64,000 bases of DNA from a virus: IMG/VR virus record IMGVR_UViG_3300020159_000429, positions 1-64,000 of that record, one strand, 5' to 3'. The position numbers were made by a program, and so were the translations under genes. Below, piece by piece: positions 11,683 to 17,726 of this stretch. Numbering within the stretch: the stretch's first letter is position 1; every line of letters begins with the position of its first letter. The notes beneath the pieces were generated by a model. That model saw only the letters and a list, made by a program, of their open reading frames with translations, made no database searches and was not told the DNA's origin.

Positions 11683-11859
11683 CTTGACGATCAAGCAAGG
11701 CAAATTAAATTAGAAGCCATGCGGTCAGTTTGGTACATGCGTGGAGGATTGTCTTTTGCTGAAGCTATGAATCTCAGTTGGGACGAAAGAGAACTTGTCC
11801 TTGAGATAGTCAAGGACAATATGGATGTTACTAAAAGTTCTGGATTACCGTTCTTTTAA
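11629..11859 (+). CDS. -1 frame extension of the chaperone (gp51-/lambda gpT-like segment)
   Basis: Open -1 frame RQRLSTLS...WYMRGGLSFAEAMNLSWDERELV...; no convincing independent SD plus start. Confidence 0.65.
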   Translation, partial: RQRLSTLSIPEILAESKALDDQARQIKLEAMRSVWYMRGGLSFAEAMNLSWDERELVLEIVKDNMDVTKSSGLPFF

Positions 11860-12902
11860 CGAGCACTCATAGCTTTGAGGATCTGTAGTACCTGAGTTTT
11901 TTGTGTAGGATCCATCTTTAAAATTTCACCAAACGCACTAGACATCACACCCATATACTCACGAGTTAATGGGGTTCCAGACATGTATCCTGTAATAGCT
12001 TTCTTTAATTGATTAGGATCTATCCCAGGCAACATGGCAGTTAGCTTGCCGTAATTGAGATTGCCTTTGGTCTGTGTCTTGGCATCATCACCGCCTTTAA
12101 TACCTCGTTTTAACCCAGCCATAAATCCCTGTCCTGAATCATCACCGGCTGCGTCGTCAGCAGCAGCGTTGCCGCCTGATTGGCTAATGTCTTGGGCTGA
12201 AGCACCTTGACCGCCGATGACCGCATCAAGTTGTTGTCCCATTTTGGCTTTAAGAATATCAGTAACTGCTGCTTTGATAATACTGTCTACTGTTGAATTC
12301 TTAAGTTCCACTTCGTCAATGATTGTTTCACTAACTGGGTTATATCGTAATCCTGCTAATTGAGCAATGCGTGATAATTCACCAATGCTCTCAGCCGATT
12401 TGTTCTTTTTTCCTTTAGGAGGAACTTCATCAGCGGGCGTCTCAGGAGCACCTGGAGCTGCTGTATCAGCGGGCGTCTCAGGAGCACCTGGCTCAGCGGG
12501 TGTCTCAGGAGCAGCATCACTGCTTGGATCTGCTGGAACTTCTATCGTACCAGTAGGTTCAATTCTATCTGTCCCAAGTTCTTTGGCAATATCACCAGTT
12601 GCTGCACTACCCGATGCCATAGCTGCTTGTTTTAACGCAGCTTCGGCTCCTGCTGTAGGAAAACCGTTGGATTTTAAAAAGGCAATTAACGCCTCCGAAT
12701 TAGGTTTTTGGTCCGTTTGACCTAGATAAAAGTCAAATTGTTTTCTAAGGCCATTAGCATACTTGGCCATGTCAAGAGCACCTTTAGCAGAACTACTTCC
12801 AAACTTAGAAGCAATACCTAGACCAGCCCTTTTTAACATACCTACAGGTGCTTCAGATATTTGTTGTTGTTGTTTTTGAGATAATATATCAGTAATTTTC
12901 AT
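11856..12902 (-). CDS. Putative internal head/virion protein with Pro-Ala-Glu repeats
   Basis: 348 aa; own TATAAATA promoter; RIAQLAGL motif resembles the scaffold C-terminus. Confidence 0.55.
   Translation of the reverse strand: MKITDILSQKQQQQISEAPVGMLKRAGLGIASKFGSSSAKGALDMAKYANGLRKQFDFYLGQTDQKPNSEALIAFLKSNGFPTAGAEAALKQAAMASGSAATGDIAKELGTDRIEPTGTIEVPADPSSDAAPETPAEPGAPETPADTAAPGAPETPADEVPPKGKKNKSAESIGELSRIAQLAGLRYNPVSETIIDEVELKNSTVDSIIKAAVTDILKAKMGQQLDAVIGGQGASAQDISQSGGNAAADDAAGDDSGQGFMAGLKRGIKGGDDAKTQTKGNLNYGKLTAMLPGIDPNQLKKAITGYMSGTPLTREYMGVMSSAFGEILKMDPTQKTQVLQILKAMSAR
12429..12513 (-). repeat. Three-copy direct repeat encoding (PG)APETPA
   Basis: atcagcgggcgtctcaggagcacctgg at 12429-12455 and 12465-12491; partial copy at 12493-12513. 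Confidence 0.85.
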
Positions 12903-12932
12903 TTAGAGATAATCCTAAGAATTTAATGTAAT

Positions 12933-12940
12933 TATTTATA
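12933..12940 (-). promoter_or_regulatory. T4-type late promoter
   Basis: TATAAATA 30 nt upstream of ATG 12902. Confidence 0.75.
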
Positions 12941-12944
12941 TGTT

Positions 12945-13385
12945 TGATAGCGAGCAATGCTCGCTTGTGTCTATCGCTAACGCTCAGACACATTTTTACT
13001 AGAATTAACTGCGAAGCAGTTTAAATATTATCCAGATCGTTCAGTCACACTTTGCCCAGGACGGGCAAAGAAAAAACATTATCCGAGTCGAACAATATCA
13101 CTTAGCGTTACAGCATTACAGTGGCGGTCATCCTGTACCACGAGCTGCGTCTTTATATGACGGCAATTATTAAATCAACGCTAACTGATTCAATAATCCG
13201 GGGATTCTCTCCCCTCATTTTAGCCTATATTAACTCTATTCAAACAGCGAAACCGCAGGCATTTTGCGATCGTGGTCCTGTTAAGGATACTTGCTGAGCC
13301 GTCTGCTACCAAACAGACTTACCTTACCGCCACACATCAGAGCGGATTTTGGACACTATAACAGTCGCCAGTGCGGGCTTTTTTG
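12945..13385 (-). ncRNA. Candidate large structured non-coding RNA (class unknown); boundaries approximate
   Basis: Only long ORF-free gap in the window; about ten stems plus an 8-bp loop-to-downstream complementarity; G-U pairs favour the minus strand. Confidence 0.65.
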
Positions 13386-13389
13386 GCAG

Positions 13390-13824
13390 TTATTTTGCCT
13401 TTGATTGTTCTAAAAGACGCTGTCTAAGTATATTTGAACCGCCTACTCTGACGTTTATAATGCCGTTATAGTAGTCGTCGGATTCTAAAACCCTACGTTC
13501 AAATTGCTCTCTTGCCTCTAGATATGATAGTTCTGCCTTAGATTTACAAAGATAAAGTATTTCTCTTGTGAAGTTTTCCGGACCTAATGCTTGGACGTCT
13601 GCGTTTAACCTATCAGATGAACCCCAGTATTCGCGCCAATCGCTTTCTACTGTGCTTCTTCTTTTAAGTTTTTTGCCTTTGAGTGGTGGTTTAGTACGTT
13701 TGAATTGAGCTAATTTCTTGCCTATGTACTTCTGTCCGGTGTGTAGATTCGTGATGATGTAAACAAAGCCAATGTAGCCTTCTGGTATTTCTTCTACGGG
13801 TTGATTTTGATATGTCCACAGCAC
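13390..13824 (-). CDS. GIY-YIG family endonuclease (single-domain), GTG start
   Basis: GFVYIITN...KYIGKK, YWGSS, F.REIL, LE and YYN motifs. Confidence 0.85.
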   Translation of the reverse strand: MLWTYQNQPVEEIPEGYIGFVYIITNLHTGQKYIGKKLAQFKRTKPPLKGKKLKRRSTVESDWREYWGSSDRLNADVQALGPENFTREILYLCKSKAELSYLEAREQFERRVLESDDYYNGIINVRVGGSNILRQRLLEQSKAK

Positions 13825-14055
13825 TCACTTAGTTATTTTTGGGGGTCTGCCTAGCTGGCCTTTTCTGGCTGCTTTACGTTGTTGCCTTTTTTCTTGTATT
13901 TCTACTCGCCTAATTGATGCTTCGTTGCGTATTTCTGATAGCCAATATCGTGCCTTTATGCCTGCTTCATTAGAGCCTTTGTATTCAAAGCGGTCTTGCC
14001 ACTTGAAATATTCCTGAAACGCTTTGATCATACGATCATGTGCTTCTGTACTCAT
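13825..14055 (-). CDS. Small basic protein, possibly Hc1/histone-H1-like DNA-binding
   Basis: KGSNEAGIKAR..L.EI pattern; basic tail with GRPPK. Confidence 0.45.
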   Translation of the reverse strand: MSTEAHDRMIKAFQEYFKWQDRFEYKGSNEAGIKARYWLSEIRNEASIRRVEIQEKRQQRKAARKGQLGRPPKITK

Positions 14056-15833
14056 TCTACTATTTCTACATCCGTTGAGTAACTGGTAAATCCGTTTTCT
14101 TTAATGACCTTGAGCACATGATTTACACGACTGGTTAGGTCGTCTCTGTGTGAGATTAGGAACACATTCTTGTTGCGTTCACGAGTCATCTTCTTAAGTA
14201 CAGCAATACTTGATTCAACACCGCTGGAGTCCATGCCCGAATCTACTAGTTCGTCAATGAACAACAAGTTGATAGGGTGGTATAGGTTCTCCCACACGTC
14301 ACGGAACGCCCACGACATAGATAGAATCAATCTATTACGCTCACCTCTAGACAGATTATCAAAGTCTAGGTCTTGGCCCAGCTGTGTAATCAACACACTT
14401 AGGTCATTTTGGAACTCAACAATATGTGGCAAGCCAATCTTATCAAGATAATACGTCAGTCTTTGGTTTAAGAATGATAAATTTTGATCAATAATACGTT
14501 TTCTTACAAAACTATCTTTGTTGGTTAATAGTTTGTACAAGAACTCTTGATGATCCTTAACTCTTGTAAGATCGTTGACAGAATCCCAGTTAATTTCCTG
14601 GACAGCAGTGTTCTTTAGTTCTTCAATCTGTTCGCTGTAGGGATTAGTTTCTACTTCTTTGACAGCAATTTCTTTTTCTAATCCAGACAACGTGTTCTTG
14701 TGATTAAGTGCTTCTTCTAGATTGTCATAGCTGACCTGCGGACATGCGTTTAATTCACCTAGCATGGTCAGTGCTTCTTTGAGAGAATCAAGTTCGTTTT
14801 GATGATCGGTAACAGCTACCAAGCTATCTTCTACTTGTTTTGATTTAGTAGATACCATTGTTTCATGTTTGTCGTCATGAATCTCTTGTCCGCAGCTATG
14901 ACACTTGTGTTCGGCAAGCAATAACAGTTCTTTCTCAAGTTTATCAAGAGTCTTTTGTTCTTTTTCTAAACTAGAAACCTGTTTAGCAACCATCGCTGTG
15001 AGATTGTCATGCTCTTTCTTATTCTTTGTCCACTCTACCAGGGCACGTTGATTGCTGATCTCGTGATCAATGTCGATGGTACTGAGTACATCGATGCTCT
15101 TTCTAAGATTTTCTAGAGCTTTTTCTTTTTGATCTTCCCACATCTTCTGTTTGCGTTCGATGCTTTCAATACTTTGTTGTATCTTTTCGTTGGATACCTT
15201 AACAGTTTCAATTCTAGTGTTTTCAGTAGCAATAGCATCTTTGGTAATCTTAATTTGATTTTTAAGATTTTCAGCTTTTTCAGACAATTGCGTAATACCT
15301 AGCAACTGTTCAATGATGTTACGCTGATCTGCTGCCTTCATAGACAGAAACGGTTCGGTGTAGGTGTTTAGTGCCACAAGATGTTTAAACATATCGTGGC
15401 TCATTGACATCATTTCTTCAATGGCTTTTTGTGTTTCTCTAGAATCACCTTGACTTTCATCTAGGTCTTCGAGTGCTTGTTCTTGGCCATTAATACTAAA
15501 CTTTAAAAGATTAGGCTTACGGCCTCGTTCAATATGATATTCAGTGCCGTCCTTTTCAAAAGTAACTGTACACAGCATGCCTTTGCCGTTGATCTTGTTA
15601 ACTAGATTGTCTTTCTTAATGTTGGTCAACGCCTGTCCGTAGATAGCATAGCTAAGACCGTTGATAATAGTGGTCTTACCTGTGCCATTACGAGCTCCAC
15701 TGTCATCCCCGCCTAGGTCCATGTTCTCGCCAAGTACCAATGTTAGTTGGCCTTTGTCAAAATCAATAGCTTGGGTTTGATTGCCTACACTCATAAAGTT
15801 TTTAACTGTTAGATTCTTAATTTTAATTGTCAT
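14052..15833 (-). CDS. gp46: Recombination ATPase subunit gp46 (SbcC/Rad50-like)
   Basis: Walker A NGTGKTT, zinc hook CHSC, signature LSRGE, Walker B LFIDE, ISH. Confidence 0.95.
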   Translation of the reverse strand: MTIKIKNLTVKNFMSVGNQTQAIDFDKGQLTLVLGENMDLGGDDSGARNGTGKTTIINGLSYAIYGQALTNIKKDNLVNKINGKGMLCTVTFEKDGTEYHIERGRKPNLLKFSINGQEQALEDLDESQGDSRETQKAIEEMMSMSHDMFKHLVALNTYTEPFLSMKAADQRNIIEQLLGITQLSEKAENLKNQIKITKDAIATENTRIETVKVSNEKIQQSIESIERKQKMWEDQKEKALENLRKSIDVLSTIDIDHEISNQRALVEWTKNKKEHDNLTAMVAKQVSSLEKEQKTLDKLEKELLLLAEHKCHSCGQEIHDDKHETMVSTKSKQVEDSLVAVTDHQNELDSLKEALTMLGELNACPQVSYDNLEEALNHKNTLSGLEKEIAVKEVETNPYSEQIEELKNTAVQEINWDSVNDLTRVKDHQEFLYKLLTNKDSFVRKRIIDQNLSFLNQRLTYYLDKIGLPHIVEFQNDLSVLITQLGQDLDFDNLSRGERNRLILSMSWAFRDVWENLYHPINLLFIDELVDSGMDSSGVESSIAVLKKMTRERNKNVFLISHRDDLTSRVNHVLKVIKENGFTSYSTDVEIVE

Positions 15834-16840
15834 AGTTCTCTATAAATGTTCAGCAAAAGTTTTTTGTCGTAGGAGTCGCTTTCAATAGCATCAATTTGAT
15901 TCATAACAATCGTATCAACTGATTCAAAGTTGATATCAATGGGCACTGCTGACCCTTCAACTTCTACTTTTTCCGGAATTAACATTAGCTCTCGCAGTTT
16001 ATATTCCGGAATAAATTGTTCTTTGATAAAATTAGCTTCTTCAAATGTAATAGGCAAGTCGATGGTAACTCGGCAGTGCATTTTTTGTCGCAGTAACTCT
16101 TTTGGAGAATCGATGATCTGACTTAGTTTGTAAGTTCTGTAAGTAGGTTGTCCAGGCCATGATTTGTACACTGGAGCAGAACCCCACTCTAGGATCATCA
16201 TGCCTCGATCATCATCACCCGCATCGGCATAGTTGTGTGGAAAAGCATTACCAATATAGGTAATGTTGCGTCCTGTTTGACGTTTGTGGAAGTGGCCACT
16301 AAACACATACTCTTGATTAACAAAGTGTGTACTTTGTAACTGTCCATGATCAGGCATTTGAACCATAGCGTTCATATAAAAGTTAGGCAATTCAAGATGC
16401 CCAAAGATATATCGACTTTTAATTTTAGAAACTTTAGTCCATTCGTCTCCTACAAGCCACGGTAAGATAGTTACATCACCTTCTGTAAGTGGTTCTTTAA
16501 TAGGCACAACATTAGGAAACAATCGCATAAACTCGATGGAGTTAATTTCACGCTTGTCTTTATAAAATAAATCGTGATTGCCTAATATAAAATAGACTTT
16601 TTCAAAACTAGCACTGAGTTTTTCTAAATTACTAACAGTATAGTTCATAGTACTAACATCAGTGGTGCTTCTATTGTGATGCCAGTCGCCTAGAAAGATT
16701 GCTGTTTCACAACCTTCTGCCCGTGCGGTATTACAGAACCAATTTACAAATTCTTCGCAATCTTGATTGTGTGTACGACTACCGCTTTTAAGTCCAAAAT
16801 GTATGTCGGTGAAACAAGCTACTTTTTTAAATAGATTCAT
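15830..16840 (-). CDS. gp47: Recombination nuclease gp47 (SbcD/Mre11-like)
   Basis: Metallophosphoesterase motifs DIHFG, GDWHH, GNHD, GHFH; adjacent to gp46. Confidence 0.95.
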   Translation of the reverse strand: MNLFKKVACFTDIHFGLKSGSRTHNQDCEEFVNWFCNTARAEGCETAIFLGDWHHNRSTTDVSTMNYTVSNLEKLSASFEKVYFILGNHDLFYKDKREINSIEFMRLFPNVVPIKEPLTEGDVTILPWLVGDEWTKVSKIKSRYIFGHLELPNFYMNAMVQMPDHGQLQSTHFVNQEYVFSGHFHKRQTGRNITYIGNAFPHNYADAGDDDRGMMILEWGSAPVYKSWPGQPTYRTYKLSQIIDSPKELLRQKMHCRVTIDLPITFEEANFIKEQFIPEYKLRELMLIPEKVEVEGSAVPIDINFESVDTIVMNQIDAIESDSYDKKLLLNIYREL

Positions 16841-16846
16841 AGATAT

Positions 16847-16875
16847 ATTATACTATAGTTAATGGAATAGATCAA
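16847..16875 (-). promoter_or_regulatory. Sigma70-type promoter for gp47
   Basis: TTGATC (16875-16870), 17-nt spacer, TATAAT (16852-16847); 6 nt before the ATG. Confidence 0.6.
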
Positions 16876-17726
16876 TCCCAATCACCGCCTTCGGTGACCA
16901 CGGGACCAGATACTGCTCCACCCCCACCTCCGCTACCGCTGTTCTGTCTAGTCCAGCTTGGATTCATACCATTCATTTCGAGAATGTCGTCTCGAATGTT
17001 TTGATTGCGTTTTTCAATGTTGATAATTCTAACGAATGAATTAGTGACAGCAGCAGTATAGTAAGCAAAAGGATTATTAGATTTACTCTCATCAAATTGT
17101 AGTCCTATCTGAGTTAGTTGAAGAATGGCCTGACCACGCATTTCGTCATTGTAGGTATATCCACGAACGTTACCACGGGTAGCATATCGTTCACAGAGTT
17201 TGATAAACATACGAGCTAGGTCATTGGTCATTTGACCGTGCTCTTTACAAAACTCCCCAGTTGCTAAATCGCCTTTCCAATGACTTTTGCCCACACATAT
17301 TAAGTTGTCATTGTCGTCAAACTTCCAATGTTGGAAAGGAGGAAAGTTTACTTTCTCATGACTGTCGGCAGTACTCTTAACTGTCTTTTTTCTCCCTGGT
17401 GCTAGTGGAATATGATCAAAGGTCATAATTCGAAATACTAAGCTGTGTTTTGATATTTTTTTATAATCAATTTCTGAATCTTTAGCAGATGCTTTTTTAT
17501 TAGTTCTTTGAGCAATTTCGTGTGCTTTTTTGCTGTCTTTAGTAGCACGAAAGCGTTTGGCTTCTGCGATAGTTCTTATATTAAGTTTGGCAAGATTAGG
17601 CAGAATTAAATCATAATCTTGATATTCAGGTTGCGTATAAGAGCAAAATGTATTTTTACTTCTGTGTATTTCTGCTAGTAAGTCCTTGTTTGTTAAGTAC
17701 TTTACTTTTGGTGGTTGTTGTATCAT
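16872..17726 (-). CDS. gp55: Late-transcription sigma factor gp55
   Basis: YLTNKDLL, YTYNDEM, FDESKSNNPFAYYT, FVRIINIEKR motifs; canonical position upstream of gp47/gp46. Confidence 0.88.
   Translation of the reverse strand: MIQQPPKVKYLTNKDLLAEIHRSKNTFCSYTQPEYQDYDLILPNLAKLNIRTIAEAKRFRATKDSKKAHEIAQRTNKKASAKDSEIDYKKISKHSLVFRIMTFDHIPLAPGRKKTVKSTADSHEKVNFPPFQHWKFDDNDNLICVGKSHWKGDLATGEFCKEHGQMTNDLARMFIKLCERYATRGNVRGYTYNDEMRGQAILQLTQIGLQFDESKSNNPFAYYTAAVTNSFVRIINIEKRNQNIRDDILEMNGMNPSWTRQNSGSGGGGGAVSGPVVTEGGDWD

What the first reader, a model, noticed from the sequence alone, without database searches (positions are those of the whole stretch)
12945..13824. GIY-YIG nuclease followed by a ~450-nt pseudoknotted non-coding element: candidate nuclease-RNA system
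Seen: other intergenic gaps here are under about 100 nt, but 487 nt without an ORF follow the GIY-YIG stop (13390) and end at the next gene's own late promoter (12933). On the minus strand the gap is filled with consecutive stems: 13327-13345, 13301-13318, 13276-13287, 13200-13214, a 13-bp stem 13165-13198, a 9-bp stem 13090-13098/13025-13033 enclosing the 8-bp hairpin 13050-13070, then three terminal hairpins. The loop region UUAGCGUU (13177-13184) is exactly complementary to AACGCUAA (13102-13109), giving a pseudoknot-type pairing. The two long stems each contain two G-U pairs on the minus strand that would be A-C mismatches on the plus strand, which argues for an RNA in the same sense as the nuclease. 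The 144-aa nuclease is essentially a bare catalytic domain with a basic insert (KRTKPPLKGKKLKRR) and no separate DNA-binding domain. I do not recognise group I/II intron, RNase P, tmRNA or tRNA hallmarks. Inference: a co-transcribed large ncRNA that may scaffold, guide or regulate the nuclease, by analogy with HEARO/omega RNAs of IscB. It could instead be an independent ornate phage RNA or a replication/packaging signal.
Basis: partly seen in the sequence, partly recalled or inferred. Interest (0 to 1): 0.9.

Follow-up and report, generated by a model that had tools for sequence, protein, structure and literature searches.

The report
Knotted twin-box RNA beside phage nuclease
The gene-free stretch behind a small nuclease gene of this uncultured T4-like freshwater phage encodes a real, roughly 430-base, doubly knotted non-coding RNA whose first third is the catalogued but unexplained Polynucleobacter-1 motif. 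The same RNA also occurs without any such nuclease in mobile elements of lake bacteria, so the nuclease looks like a fixed neighbour rather than a partner.

Summary
The 487-nt gap (12903-13389) encodes, on the minus strand, a structured RNA of about 430 nt (13379-12949).

- **Known part.** The 5' 138 nt match Rfam RF01718 (Polynucleobacter-1) over the full model: 59.6 bits against a cut-off of 37. This is an orphan motif from 2010. Its authors already noted that it lies downstream of PSSM2_218-like genes, and I show that family is this SegE-type GIY-YIG.
- **Uncatalogued part.** The other two-thirds match no family. Of 85 modelled pairs, 86% of cells are paired across 55 relatives (shuffles 73%, 0 of 500).
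- **Twin boxes.** One short word occurs twice (13090-13078 and 13039-13027). Its variable letters are identical in 103 of 103 phage variants.
- **Nuclease-RNA system.** This reading is not supported. The same RNA, with twin boxes, sits in integrated elements of freshwater Burkholderiales without any GIY-YIG. The nuclease family is widespread without the RNA.
- **Linkage.** Within this phage lineage the two are always adjacent (about 120 loci).

Best reading: an autonomous mobile-element RNA that shows one word twice to an unknown trans-acting reader, with a homing-type nuclease fixed beside it. This scan has reported the same RNA on other DNA before.

The parts
13390..13824 (-). SegE-type GIY-YIG nuclease gene (144 aa, catalytic domain only)
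   Evidence: Pfam PF19835 at 126 bits, covering residues 3-123. It is intact in 147 of 151 related loci. The GIY, YIG, Arg, Glu and Asn motif positions are invariant over 112 unique variants.
12949..13379 (-). Whole structured RNA (about 430 nt): full-length Polynucleobacter-1 / twin-box RNA
   Evidence: Conserved from the nuclease stop to the late promoter in 55 aligned relatives. There are 103 unique variants.
13242..13379 (-). 5' domain = Rfam RF01718 Polynucleobacter-1 (helices P1 13374-13370:13357-13353, P2, P3, P4 13296-13291:13250-13245, P5 13271-13266:13256-13251)
   Evidence: cmscan 59.6 bits against gathering score 37, model positions 1-141 of 141. Ten relatives score 67-108 bits. 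P1, P4 and P5 covary.
13200..13214 (-). Hairpin H5 (GGGG/CCCC)
   Evidence: 94-100% paired; all pairs show changes on both sides.
13168..13195 (-). Hairpin H6, whose loop forms pseudoknot PK1
   Evidence: 10 of 10 pairs change on both sides; 90% paired.
13102..13184 (-). Pseudoknot PK1: H6 loop 13184-13178 (UUAGCGU) pairs with 13108-13102 (ACGCUAA)
   Evidence: 97% paired in A1. 99% paired with 6 of 7 pairs covarying in 103 sequences. For example, loop UAGCGU with ACGCUA, against loop UAGCAG with CUGCUG.
13111..13161 (-). Second knot: H7 13161-13157:13131-13127 crosses H8b 13141-13137:13125-13121, inside H8a 13147-13144:13114-13111. It contains the near-invariant GGUACMGGAYRACCGCC core.
   Evidence: Stacked covarying pairs. 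84-96% paired.
13078..13090 (-). Twin box 1: CG-ACUC-GG-AUAAU
   Evidence: The two letters before AUAAU are identical to those of box 2 in 103 of 103 unique phage RNAs (classes AG, GG, GC, GA). The two letters before ACUC/AUCU are identical in 89 of 103.
13051..13069 (-). Hairpin H9 between the boxes
   Evidence: 97% paired; 5 of 7 pairs change on both sides.
13027..13039 (-). Twin box 2: CG-AUCU-GG-AUAAU
   Evidence: Bacterial relatives carry the same pair of boxes as GAACUC-yyy-RAAA and GAAUCU-yyy-RAAA.
12949..13020 (-). 3' hairpins: H10 (UUCG loop, 13020-13008), T1 (12991-12967, loop GAGCG..AGCGA), T2 (12965-12949)
   Evidence: 82-85% paired with two-sided changes. In most relatives T2 is followed by a U run. 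T1 and T2 are shared with the bacterial RNAs.
12933..12940 (-). TATAAATA late-promoter-like box of the next gene (start 12902). It marks the outer limit of the RNA.
   Evidence: Read from the sequence. Conserved as ATAAATA in relatives. Its promoter function is inferred from the T4 late-promoter consensus (my own knowledge).

Best explanation
The gap is the gene of a roughly 430-nt, doubly pseudoknotted non-coding RNA read from the minus strand. It is the full-length form of the orphan Rfam motif Polynucleobacter-1.

In this phage it is most likely made as the tail of the gp55-gp47-gp46-orf76-GIY-YIG transcript. It ends at two hairpins just before the next gene's late promoter (inferred).

It is an autonomous RNA of mobile elements, not a subunit of the nuclease. 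Its knotted core holds out the same short word twice (..CUC-GGA-UAAU and ..UCU-GGA-UAAU). Because the two copies always change together, one kind of base-pairing reader acting in trans must meet both, either at once or one after the other (inferred). My weakly favoured candidate is the anticodon loop of one tRNA species.

The GIY-YIG is an intact SegE-type free-standing homing-type nuclease that has become fixed beside the RNA gene in this lineage. It probably promotes the mosaic exchange seen around it (inferred).
For: **The RNA is real.** See the pair statistics and the two pseudoknots and the RF01718 hit.

**The RNA does not depend on the nuclease.**
- 27 loci in freshwater Burkholderiales carry RF01718 at 79-97 bits. 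They include complete chromosomes of Limnohabitans and Polynucleobacter.
- These copies share the core, the twin boxes and the terminal hairpins.
- No GIY-YIG is found by tblastn in these loci.
- There the RNA lies between a divergent DUF6641 gene (24 of 27 loci) and a 188-aa tyrosine recombinase (15 of 27), in a small integrated element.
- Only 9-10 of 101 Polynucleobacter species genomes and 1 of 151 genomes of the wider family hold it, so it is accessory.

**The nuclease occurs without the RNA.** Homologs of about 140 aa occur in 535 phage records in other contexts, with 0-90 nt behind them in the four I inspected. Melnitz has no RF01718 hit.

**The word is not read by the neighbouring proteins.**
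- The L002 nuclease is 97% identical to the window's, yet the box word is GC rather than GG.
- Bacterial DUF6641 is 100% identical and the recombinase 99% identical between elements with words AGC and AGA.

**The nuclease behaves like a homing gene.**
- It sits at different loci in different phages.
- It can be far more similar than its flanks, for example L018 with GIY 94% and gp46 62%.
- RNA 5' types and box classes are reshuffled relative to it.
- It is intact and under constraint.

**Hints for a codon-like word.** All eight bacterial words end in A or C and are followed by a purine. The phage words are GGA, GCA, AGA and GAA.
Against: - In phages the RNA was never seen without the nuclease (about 120 loci). 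This is unusual for a selfish homing gene and leaves room for a functional tie.
- No transcript ends, abundance or processing could be shown. Only assembled contigs of RNA libraries were available.
- No reader of the boxes was found in the RNA, the window or the neighbouring genes.
- The tRNA idea rests on few, related words. In phages the base after the word is U rather than a purine. The relatives' large tRNA sets cannot discriminate.
- Three bacterial copies have unequal boxes (L227, L209, L298).
Confidence: 0.6

Rival explanations
1. Nuclease-RNA system. The RNA binds the domain-minimal GIY-YIG and supplies DNA recognition, scaffolding or regulation. More generally, it serves minimal DNA enzymes of mobile elements: the GIY-YIG in phages and a 188-aa catalytic-domain-only tyrosine recombinase in bacteria.
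For: - Adjacency in phages is complete.
- The nuclease is only the catalytic domain.
- In bacteria the RNA is followed on the same strand by a short recombinase that lacks an N-terminal DNA-binding domain.
- Nearly identical enzymes with different words are what a system with an RNA-borne specificity would show.
Against: - One RNA would have to serve two unrelated enzyme folds.
- The nuclease family works without the RNA in hundreds of phages.
- 12 of 27 bacterial loci show no recombinase within the stretch held.
- The variable letters are only 2-5 nt long and their flanks are constant, so there is no guide of useful length.
- No Rfam hit to HEARO or other guide RNAs.
Confidence: 0.12
2. Cis-acting end of the operon. 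The structure is a 3' untranslated element that stabilises, terminates or insulates the early or middle transcript before the late gene. It is not a trans-acting RNA.
For: - It sits at the 3' end of a tightly packed operon and ends in hairpins followed by U runs in relatives.
- Weinberg et al. classed the motif as a possible cis-regulator.
Against: - 430 nt with two covarying pseudoknots and twin boxes is far more than termination or protection needs.
- In bacteria it stands behind a divergent gene, with about 170-240 nt of its own upstream DNA. There it is a separate unit, or at most the leader of the recombinase gene.
Confidence: 0.1
3. DNA-level element. The stretch is a replication origin, packaging or recombination site, and the twin boxes are two recombination cores whose crossover letters must match.
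For: - Identical short direct repeats that change together are what tyrosine-recombinase overlap regions do (my own knowledge).
- A recombinase gene is adjacent in bacteria.
- L056 lacks about 85 nt including box 1 and H9.
Against: - The G-U-rich covariation is strand-specific and includes pseudoknots. That points to selection on an RNA.
- The boxes lack the inverted arms of a recombinase core site (read).
- The phages have no recombinase gene at this locus.
Confidence: 0.05

Closest known systems
Polynucleobacter-1 RNA motif (Rfam RF01718; Weinberg et al. 2010, Genome Biol 11:R31, PMC2864571)
   Same: - Positions 13242-13379 match the whole 141-position model above the cut-off.
- The motif was reported downstream of GOS11034/PSSM2_218-like genes. 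PSSM2_218 is a homolog of this nuclease.
- The published flanks already show the next elements of this RNA.
   Different: - The family covers only the first third.
- The roughly 290 nt that follow, with two pseudoknots, twin boxes and terminal hairpins, are not in Rfam or in any paper I could find.
- The authors had found it in no sequenced purified phage, and they did not name the upstream gene as a nuclease.
GOLLD and ROOL (large ornate RNAs of phages and prophages; Rfam)
   Same: A large, intricately folded RNA of unknown function carried by phages and integrated elements, with a sporadic distribution.
   Different: There is no sequence or structure match. It is smaller. That GOLLD and ROOL lie near tRNA genes and form multimers is from my own knowledge and was not tested here.
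T4 Seg free-standing GIY-YIG homing endonucleases (SegE; SegB in the tRNA gene cluster)
   Same: - The protein matches the SegE GIY-YIG domain.
- It sits between conserved genes, next to an RNA gene.
- It lies at other sites in other phages and can be far more similar than its flanks.
   Different: - At 144 aa it has no C-terminal DNA-binding region.
- In this lineage it is always present rather than sporadic.
- Cleavage and homing were not tested. The biology of SegB and SegE is from my own knowledge.
HEARO/omega RNA with IscB (RNA-guided nuclease of mobile elements)
   Same: A large structured RNA lies directly beside a small nuclease gene on a mobile genome.
   Different: - There is no Rfam match.
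- There is no long variable guide.
- RNA and nuclease each occur without the other.
T-box Stem I specifier (codon-like triplet read by a tRNA anticodon)
   Same: It works like this only as a hypothesis. Short triplets, ending in A or C and followed by a purine in the bacterial copies, are shown in unpaired stretches.
   Different: - No T-box hit and no antiterminator.
- There are two identical triplets instead of one.
- In phages the next base is U.

Membership tests
Rfam RF01718 Polynucleobacter-1 | Covariance-model score at or above the gathering score (37 bits) over the whole model | tested here: met
   59.6 bits, E = 1.5e-11, model positions 1-141 of 141 at 13242-13379 on the minus strand. 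Relatives score 67-108 bits.
Rfam RF01718 Polynucleobacter-1 | Consensus helices kept by compensatory changes | tested here: met
   P1, P4 and P5 are 87-97% paired with two-sided changes. P2 and P3 could not be judged because of MAFFT misalignment.
Rfam RF01718 Polynucleobacter-1 | Lies downstream of a GOS11034/PSSM2_218-like gene (authors' note) | tested here: met
PSSM2_218 matches the window's nuclease at E = 6e-22 and 48% identity.
Rfam RF02947 cow-rumen-2 | Score at or above the gathering score (66 bits) | tested here: not met
   22.9 bits at 13103-13197. It was not recovered in 10 relatives. It is a resemblance only.
SegE-type GIY-YIG nuclease (Pfam PF19835) | Domain match and catalytic motifs | tested here: met
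   126 bits. The GFVY, Y.GKK, Arg, REI and YNG positions are invariant in 112 variants.
Free-standing homing endonuclease | Sporadic presence at a site, with empty sites in close relatives | tested here: not met
   All RNA-bearing loci have it. The nearest cultured relative by gp46 (PA5oct, 47%) lacks both RNA and nuclease.
Free-standing homing endonuclease | Different genomic sites in different phages, and similarity out of step with the flanks | tested here: met
   It lies after nrdB in Melnitz and elsewhere in S-SRM01, phiN3, ACP17 and ACG-2014f. GIY is 94% identical against gp46 62% in L018.
Free-standing homing endonuclease | Site-specific cleavage of the allele that lacks it | not testable with these tools
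   This needs a biochemical or genetic assay.
RNA-guided nuclease systems (IscB/HEARO type) | RNA and effector co-occur throughout the family | tested here: not met
   The RNA occurs without the nuclease in 27 bacterial loci. The nuclease occurs without the RNA in many phages.
RNA-guided nuclease systems (IscB/HEARO type) | A variable guide segment long enough to specify a target | tested here: not met
   Only 2-5 letters vary in parallel, and the flanks are constant.
tRNA / tmRNA | Detected by ARAGORN or Rfam models | tested here: not met
   No tRNA or tmRNA in the window. No Rfam hit.
T-box riboswitch | Rfam model hit, T-box sequence and antiterminator | tested here: not met
   No hit, even at E up to 10, in 12000-14500.

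The most novel reading that the evidence does not exclude
The twin boxes are codon-like triplets. They are GGA, GCA, AGA or GAA in phages, and AGC, AUC, GGA, AGA and others in bacteria. Each is held out by the knotted core to pair with the anticodon of one tRNA species. The RNA would then be a two-site, T-box-like tRNA-binding RNA that mobile elements use as a sponge, shield or sensor in the tRNA-centred conflict between phages and hosts. The word would switch quickly between otherwise identical elements.
Probability: 0.12. Interest if true: 0.85.

Novelty: new variant of a known kind. Interest (0 to 1): 0.6.

Why it matters
**What changes in the record.** An orphan Rfam motif that has been unexplained since 2010 turns out to be the first third of a much larger, doubly knotted RNA. 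That RNA is shared by uncultured giant T4-like phages and by small integrated elements of abundant lake bacteria (Polynucleobacter, Limnohabitans).

**A route to experiments.** The bacterial copies sit in cultured strains. This makes the RNA experimentally reachable for the first time: pull-downs, probing, and swapping the word.

**Why the twin boxes are interesting.** The rule that one word appears twice and always changes together is a rare and sharp constraint. It predicts a base-pairing reader.

**Corrections to annotation.**
- Hundreds of phage records annotate the nuclease family as 'NAD synthetase', a label at odds with its strong GIY-YIG domain match.
- The tempting 'RNA-guided GIY-YIG' reading is not supported.

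Tried and rejected
- **RNA libraries.** Only Logan contigs were on hand. Contigs of four metatranscriptome studies lie mostly on the nuclease gene and only a few on the RNA. Uncovered parts prove nothing, and no starts, ends or levels can be read.
- **cow-rumen-2 (RF02947).** The 22.9-bit resemblance of 13103-13197 was not recovered in ten relatives. I do not claim membership.
The pairing 13098-13090 with 13033-13025 is no better than with swapped partners.
- **Pairing of the two boxes.** I tried pairing them with each other, with the letters before them, or with H9. It fits some classes (CG/GG) but fails the commonest class (CA/AG).
- **Search for a complement of the box word.** In the 64-kb window it found only the segment just upstream of box 1 and chance-level sites. 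Column-by-column covariation within the RNA gave no stacked partner.
- **Scans for further words.** Patterns with a pyrimidine as first letter, or a third letter other than A, returned only unrelated DNA from viral contigs.
- **Neighbouring proteins.** orf76 shows no similarity to bacterial DUF6641. The two unnamed bacterial neighbour proteins have no PDB relatives by sequence and no defence-system match.
- **tRNA sets of giant relatives.** They hold 16-27 tRNAs, including the matching ones, so they cannot discriminate.
- **Promoter and terminator scan.** It found nothing between the nuclease gene and the RNA on the minus strand. One promoter-like site inside H6 is at chance level.
- **DNA similarity.** There are no near or distant DNA matches in the cultured-phage collection.
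- **Complex prediction.** No job was sent, because no protein-protein claim is made.

Full report
**Setting.** The window is part of an 82.6-kb IMG/VR virus record. The relevant genes run on the minus strand:
- a gp55-like late sigma factor (16872-17726);
- gp47 (15830-16840) and gp46 (14052-15833);
- a 76-aa ORF (13825-14055);
- a 144-aa ORF (13390-13824) that matches the SegE GIY-YIG domain at 126 bits.

Then comes the 487-nt gap, followed by TATAAATA at 12940-12933 and the next gene from 12902. By gp46, the nearest cultured phages are the PA5oct-like giant phages, at 47% identity. Related contigs reach 260-355 kb.

- The gap folds better than shuffles on both strands (z = -3.85 and -2.96), so I relied on relatives instead.
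- The nuclease protein found 594 related stretches in viral contigs, and the best 80 were kept.
- In 55 non-identical loci the whole gap is alignable as far as the late promoter.
- My 85-pair model, written on the window and counted on that alignment, gives 86.4% paired cells against 72.6% in shuffles (0 of 500). It gives 648 against 223 cells with changes on both sides, and 33-42% paired when partners are slid.
- The same scan found a second knot in which H7 crosses H8b.
- G-U pairs are frequent in these helices, so the RNA is read in the sense of the nuclease gene.

**Part of it is known.**
- Positions 13242-13379 are a full-length hit to Rfam RF01718, Polynucleobacter-1 (59.6 bits against a cut-off of 37). 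Ten relatives score 67-108 bits at the same place.
- The only paper in the library that names the motif is Weinberg et al. 2010.
- Its supplement says most copies lie downstream of genes of family GOS11034, with possible homology to PSSM2_218 of cyanophage P-SSM2. It also says that no copy was found in a sequenced purified phage.
- I located PSSM2_218. It is the P-SSM2 homolog of this nuclease, annotated 'NAD synthetase'. The neighbourhood was therefore already noted, without recognising a nuclease.
- The published annotated alignment shows flanks that continue like this RNA.
- The remaining 290 nt or so match no Rfam family. The weak cow-rumen-2 resemblance does not hold up.

**Twin boxes.**
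- Two 13-nt stretches, 13090-13078 (CG-ACUC-GG-AUAAU) and 13039-13027 (CG-AUCU-GG-AUAAU), flank hairpin H9.
- In 103 unique phage RNAs the two letters before AUAAU are the same in both boxes every time (AG 45, GG 40, GC 16, GA 2). The two letters before ACUC/AUCU are the same in 89.
- The letters are identical, not complementary. I could not find a consistent partner inside the RNA or the window.
- I saw this pattern before consulting earlier notes of this scan. Those notes describe the same 'twin boxes' on other genomes.

**Is it a nuclease-RNA system?**

For:
- In phages the link is complete. All loci found through the nuclease carry the RNA or remnants of it.
- All loci found through the RNA's 3' core, where at least 800 nt upstream were available, carry the nuclease ending 330-430 nt upstream. 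Its identity to the window's nuclease ranges from 52% to 96%.

Against:
- The nuclease family is widespread without the RNA. There are 535 phage records, and the four distant ones I inspected have 0-90 nt behind the gene. The closest cultured homolog (Melnitz, 65%) sits after nrdB, in a genome with no RF01718 hit.
- The RNA occurs without the nuclease. A pattern taken from the published Polynucleobacter copy found 27 loci in genomes of freshwater Burkholderiales. All ten that I scanned score 79-97 bits for RF01718, and none has a GIY-YIG.
- These bacterial RNAs are about 540 nt long. They share the 5' domain, a GGAGAC.GCGAAACCGCC core, the T1 and T2 hairpins, and twin boxes (GAACUC-yyy-RAAA and GAAUCU-yyy-RAAA). 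The same word appears in both boxes: AGC, GGA, AGA, AUC, with three exceptions.
- They lie between a divergent DUF6641 gene and a 188-aa tyrosine recombinase. The surrounding small element also has a clamp-loader-like ATPase and a second integrase.
- The RNA is accessory: 9-10 of 101 Polynucleobacter species genomes hold it, and 1 of 151 in the wider family.

**Who reads the word?** It is not the neighbouring proteins.
- The L002 nuclease is 97% identical to the window's, but the word differs.
- Bacterial DUF6641 is 100% identical and the recombinase 99% identical between elements with AGC and AGA.
- Two identical words that drift together are what one expects when one complementary reader must pair with both. 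From my own knowledge, this is the logic of matched take-off and landing codons in T4 gene 60, of template realignment in telomerase-like reverse transcription, and of recombinase overlap regions.
- All eight bacterial words end in A or C and are followed by a purine. The phage words are GGA, GCA, AGA and GAA. This is codon-like and points, weakly, to a tRNA anticodon.
- The giant relatives encode the matching tRNAs, but they encode 16-27 tRNAs in all, so this does not discriminate.

**The nuclease.**
- It is intact in 147 of 151 loci, with invariant catalytic motifs.
- It sits at different sites in different phages and can be far more similar than its flanks.
- RNA 5' types and box classes are reshuffled around it. 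This fits double-strand-break-driven exchange by a homing-type enzyme.
- Its constant presence in this lineage is not typical of a selfish gene and remains the best argument for a functional tie.

**Expression.** Only assembled contigs of RNA libraries were available. One contig runs from the nuclease's 3' end into a relative's RNA. This is a weak hint of co-transcription and nothing more.

**Verdict.**
- The structured RNA is real and is a member of RF01718 in its first third, extended by an undescribed knotted body with twin boxes.
- The nuclease-partner reading is not supported. I favour an autonomous mobile-element RNA with an unknown base-pairing reader, at about 0.6.
- The same RNA has been reported by this scan on other DNA, with the same closest known family. 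I reached these points from my own tool results.

Noticed in passing
L226:3626-8000; L236:13229-19901; L230:3309-7212: In lake Burkholderiales the RNA belongs to a compact integrated element with this gene order: DUF6641 (divergent), the RNA, a 188-aa tyrosine recombinase with the catalytic domain only, two proteins of about 255 aa with no known family, a clamp-loader-like AAA ATPase, and a 424-aa integrase. A type II restriction enzyme gene lies next to it in one strain.
   Followed up: partly
G003:C1:401229-401366 and 419563-419698 (L211, L232, L236): Polynucleobacter sp. MWH-HuK1 has two diverged full copies of the RNA, 18 kb apart in the same orientation. This suggests tandem related elements. 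Limnohabitans DCL3 also has a second, weaker copy (53 bits).
   Followed up: partly
NC_006883 176711-177148 (PSSM2_218) and hits H5-H30: The short SegE-type GIY-YIG family is annotated 'NAD synthetase' in many cyanophage, rhizobiophage and other records. This looks like a propagated misannotation.
   Followed up: partly
L015, L017, L071 (A1 columns about 390-500): Three relatives carry an extra AT-rich insertion of 40-110 nt right after the GGUACCGGAYAACCGCC core. This place seems to tolerate added hairpins.
   Followed up: no
L056 (A1 columns about 505-590); L023 (columns about 107-280): Two relatives have large deletions inside the RNA. L056 lacks about 85 nt including the 3' strand of PK1, box 1 and H9. 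L023 lacks most of the 5' domain. They may be decaying copies or assembly errors.
   Followed up: no
L005, L007, L058, L060, L061, L063-L066 between gp46 and orf76; L034 after the nuclease gene: Some relatives have about 600 nt of extra DNA between gp46 and the 76-aa ORF. One has another gene inserted between the nuclease and the RNA. The junction appears to be a hot spot for insertions.
   Followed up: no
window 11856-12902 (minus strand): The late gene after the RNA encodes a 348-aa Ala/Pro/Gly-rich protein with no Pfam family. It is very poorly conserved (30-85% identity, often not detectable), while its neighbours are conserved.
   Followed up: no
window 13103-13197 (minus strand): There is a sub-threshold resemblance to the orphan Rfam motif cow-rumen-2. 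They share a UUAGC loop, GCCGxCA and ACAGGAUGACC. This may hint that the knotted middle domain has distant relatives in rumen metagenomes.
   Followed up: partly
G254, G257, G258 (contigs behind L047, L092, L101): Giant relatives of this phage carry clusters of 16-27 tRNA genes. The 64-kb window itself has none.
   Followed up: partly
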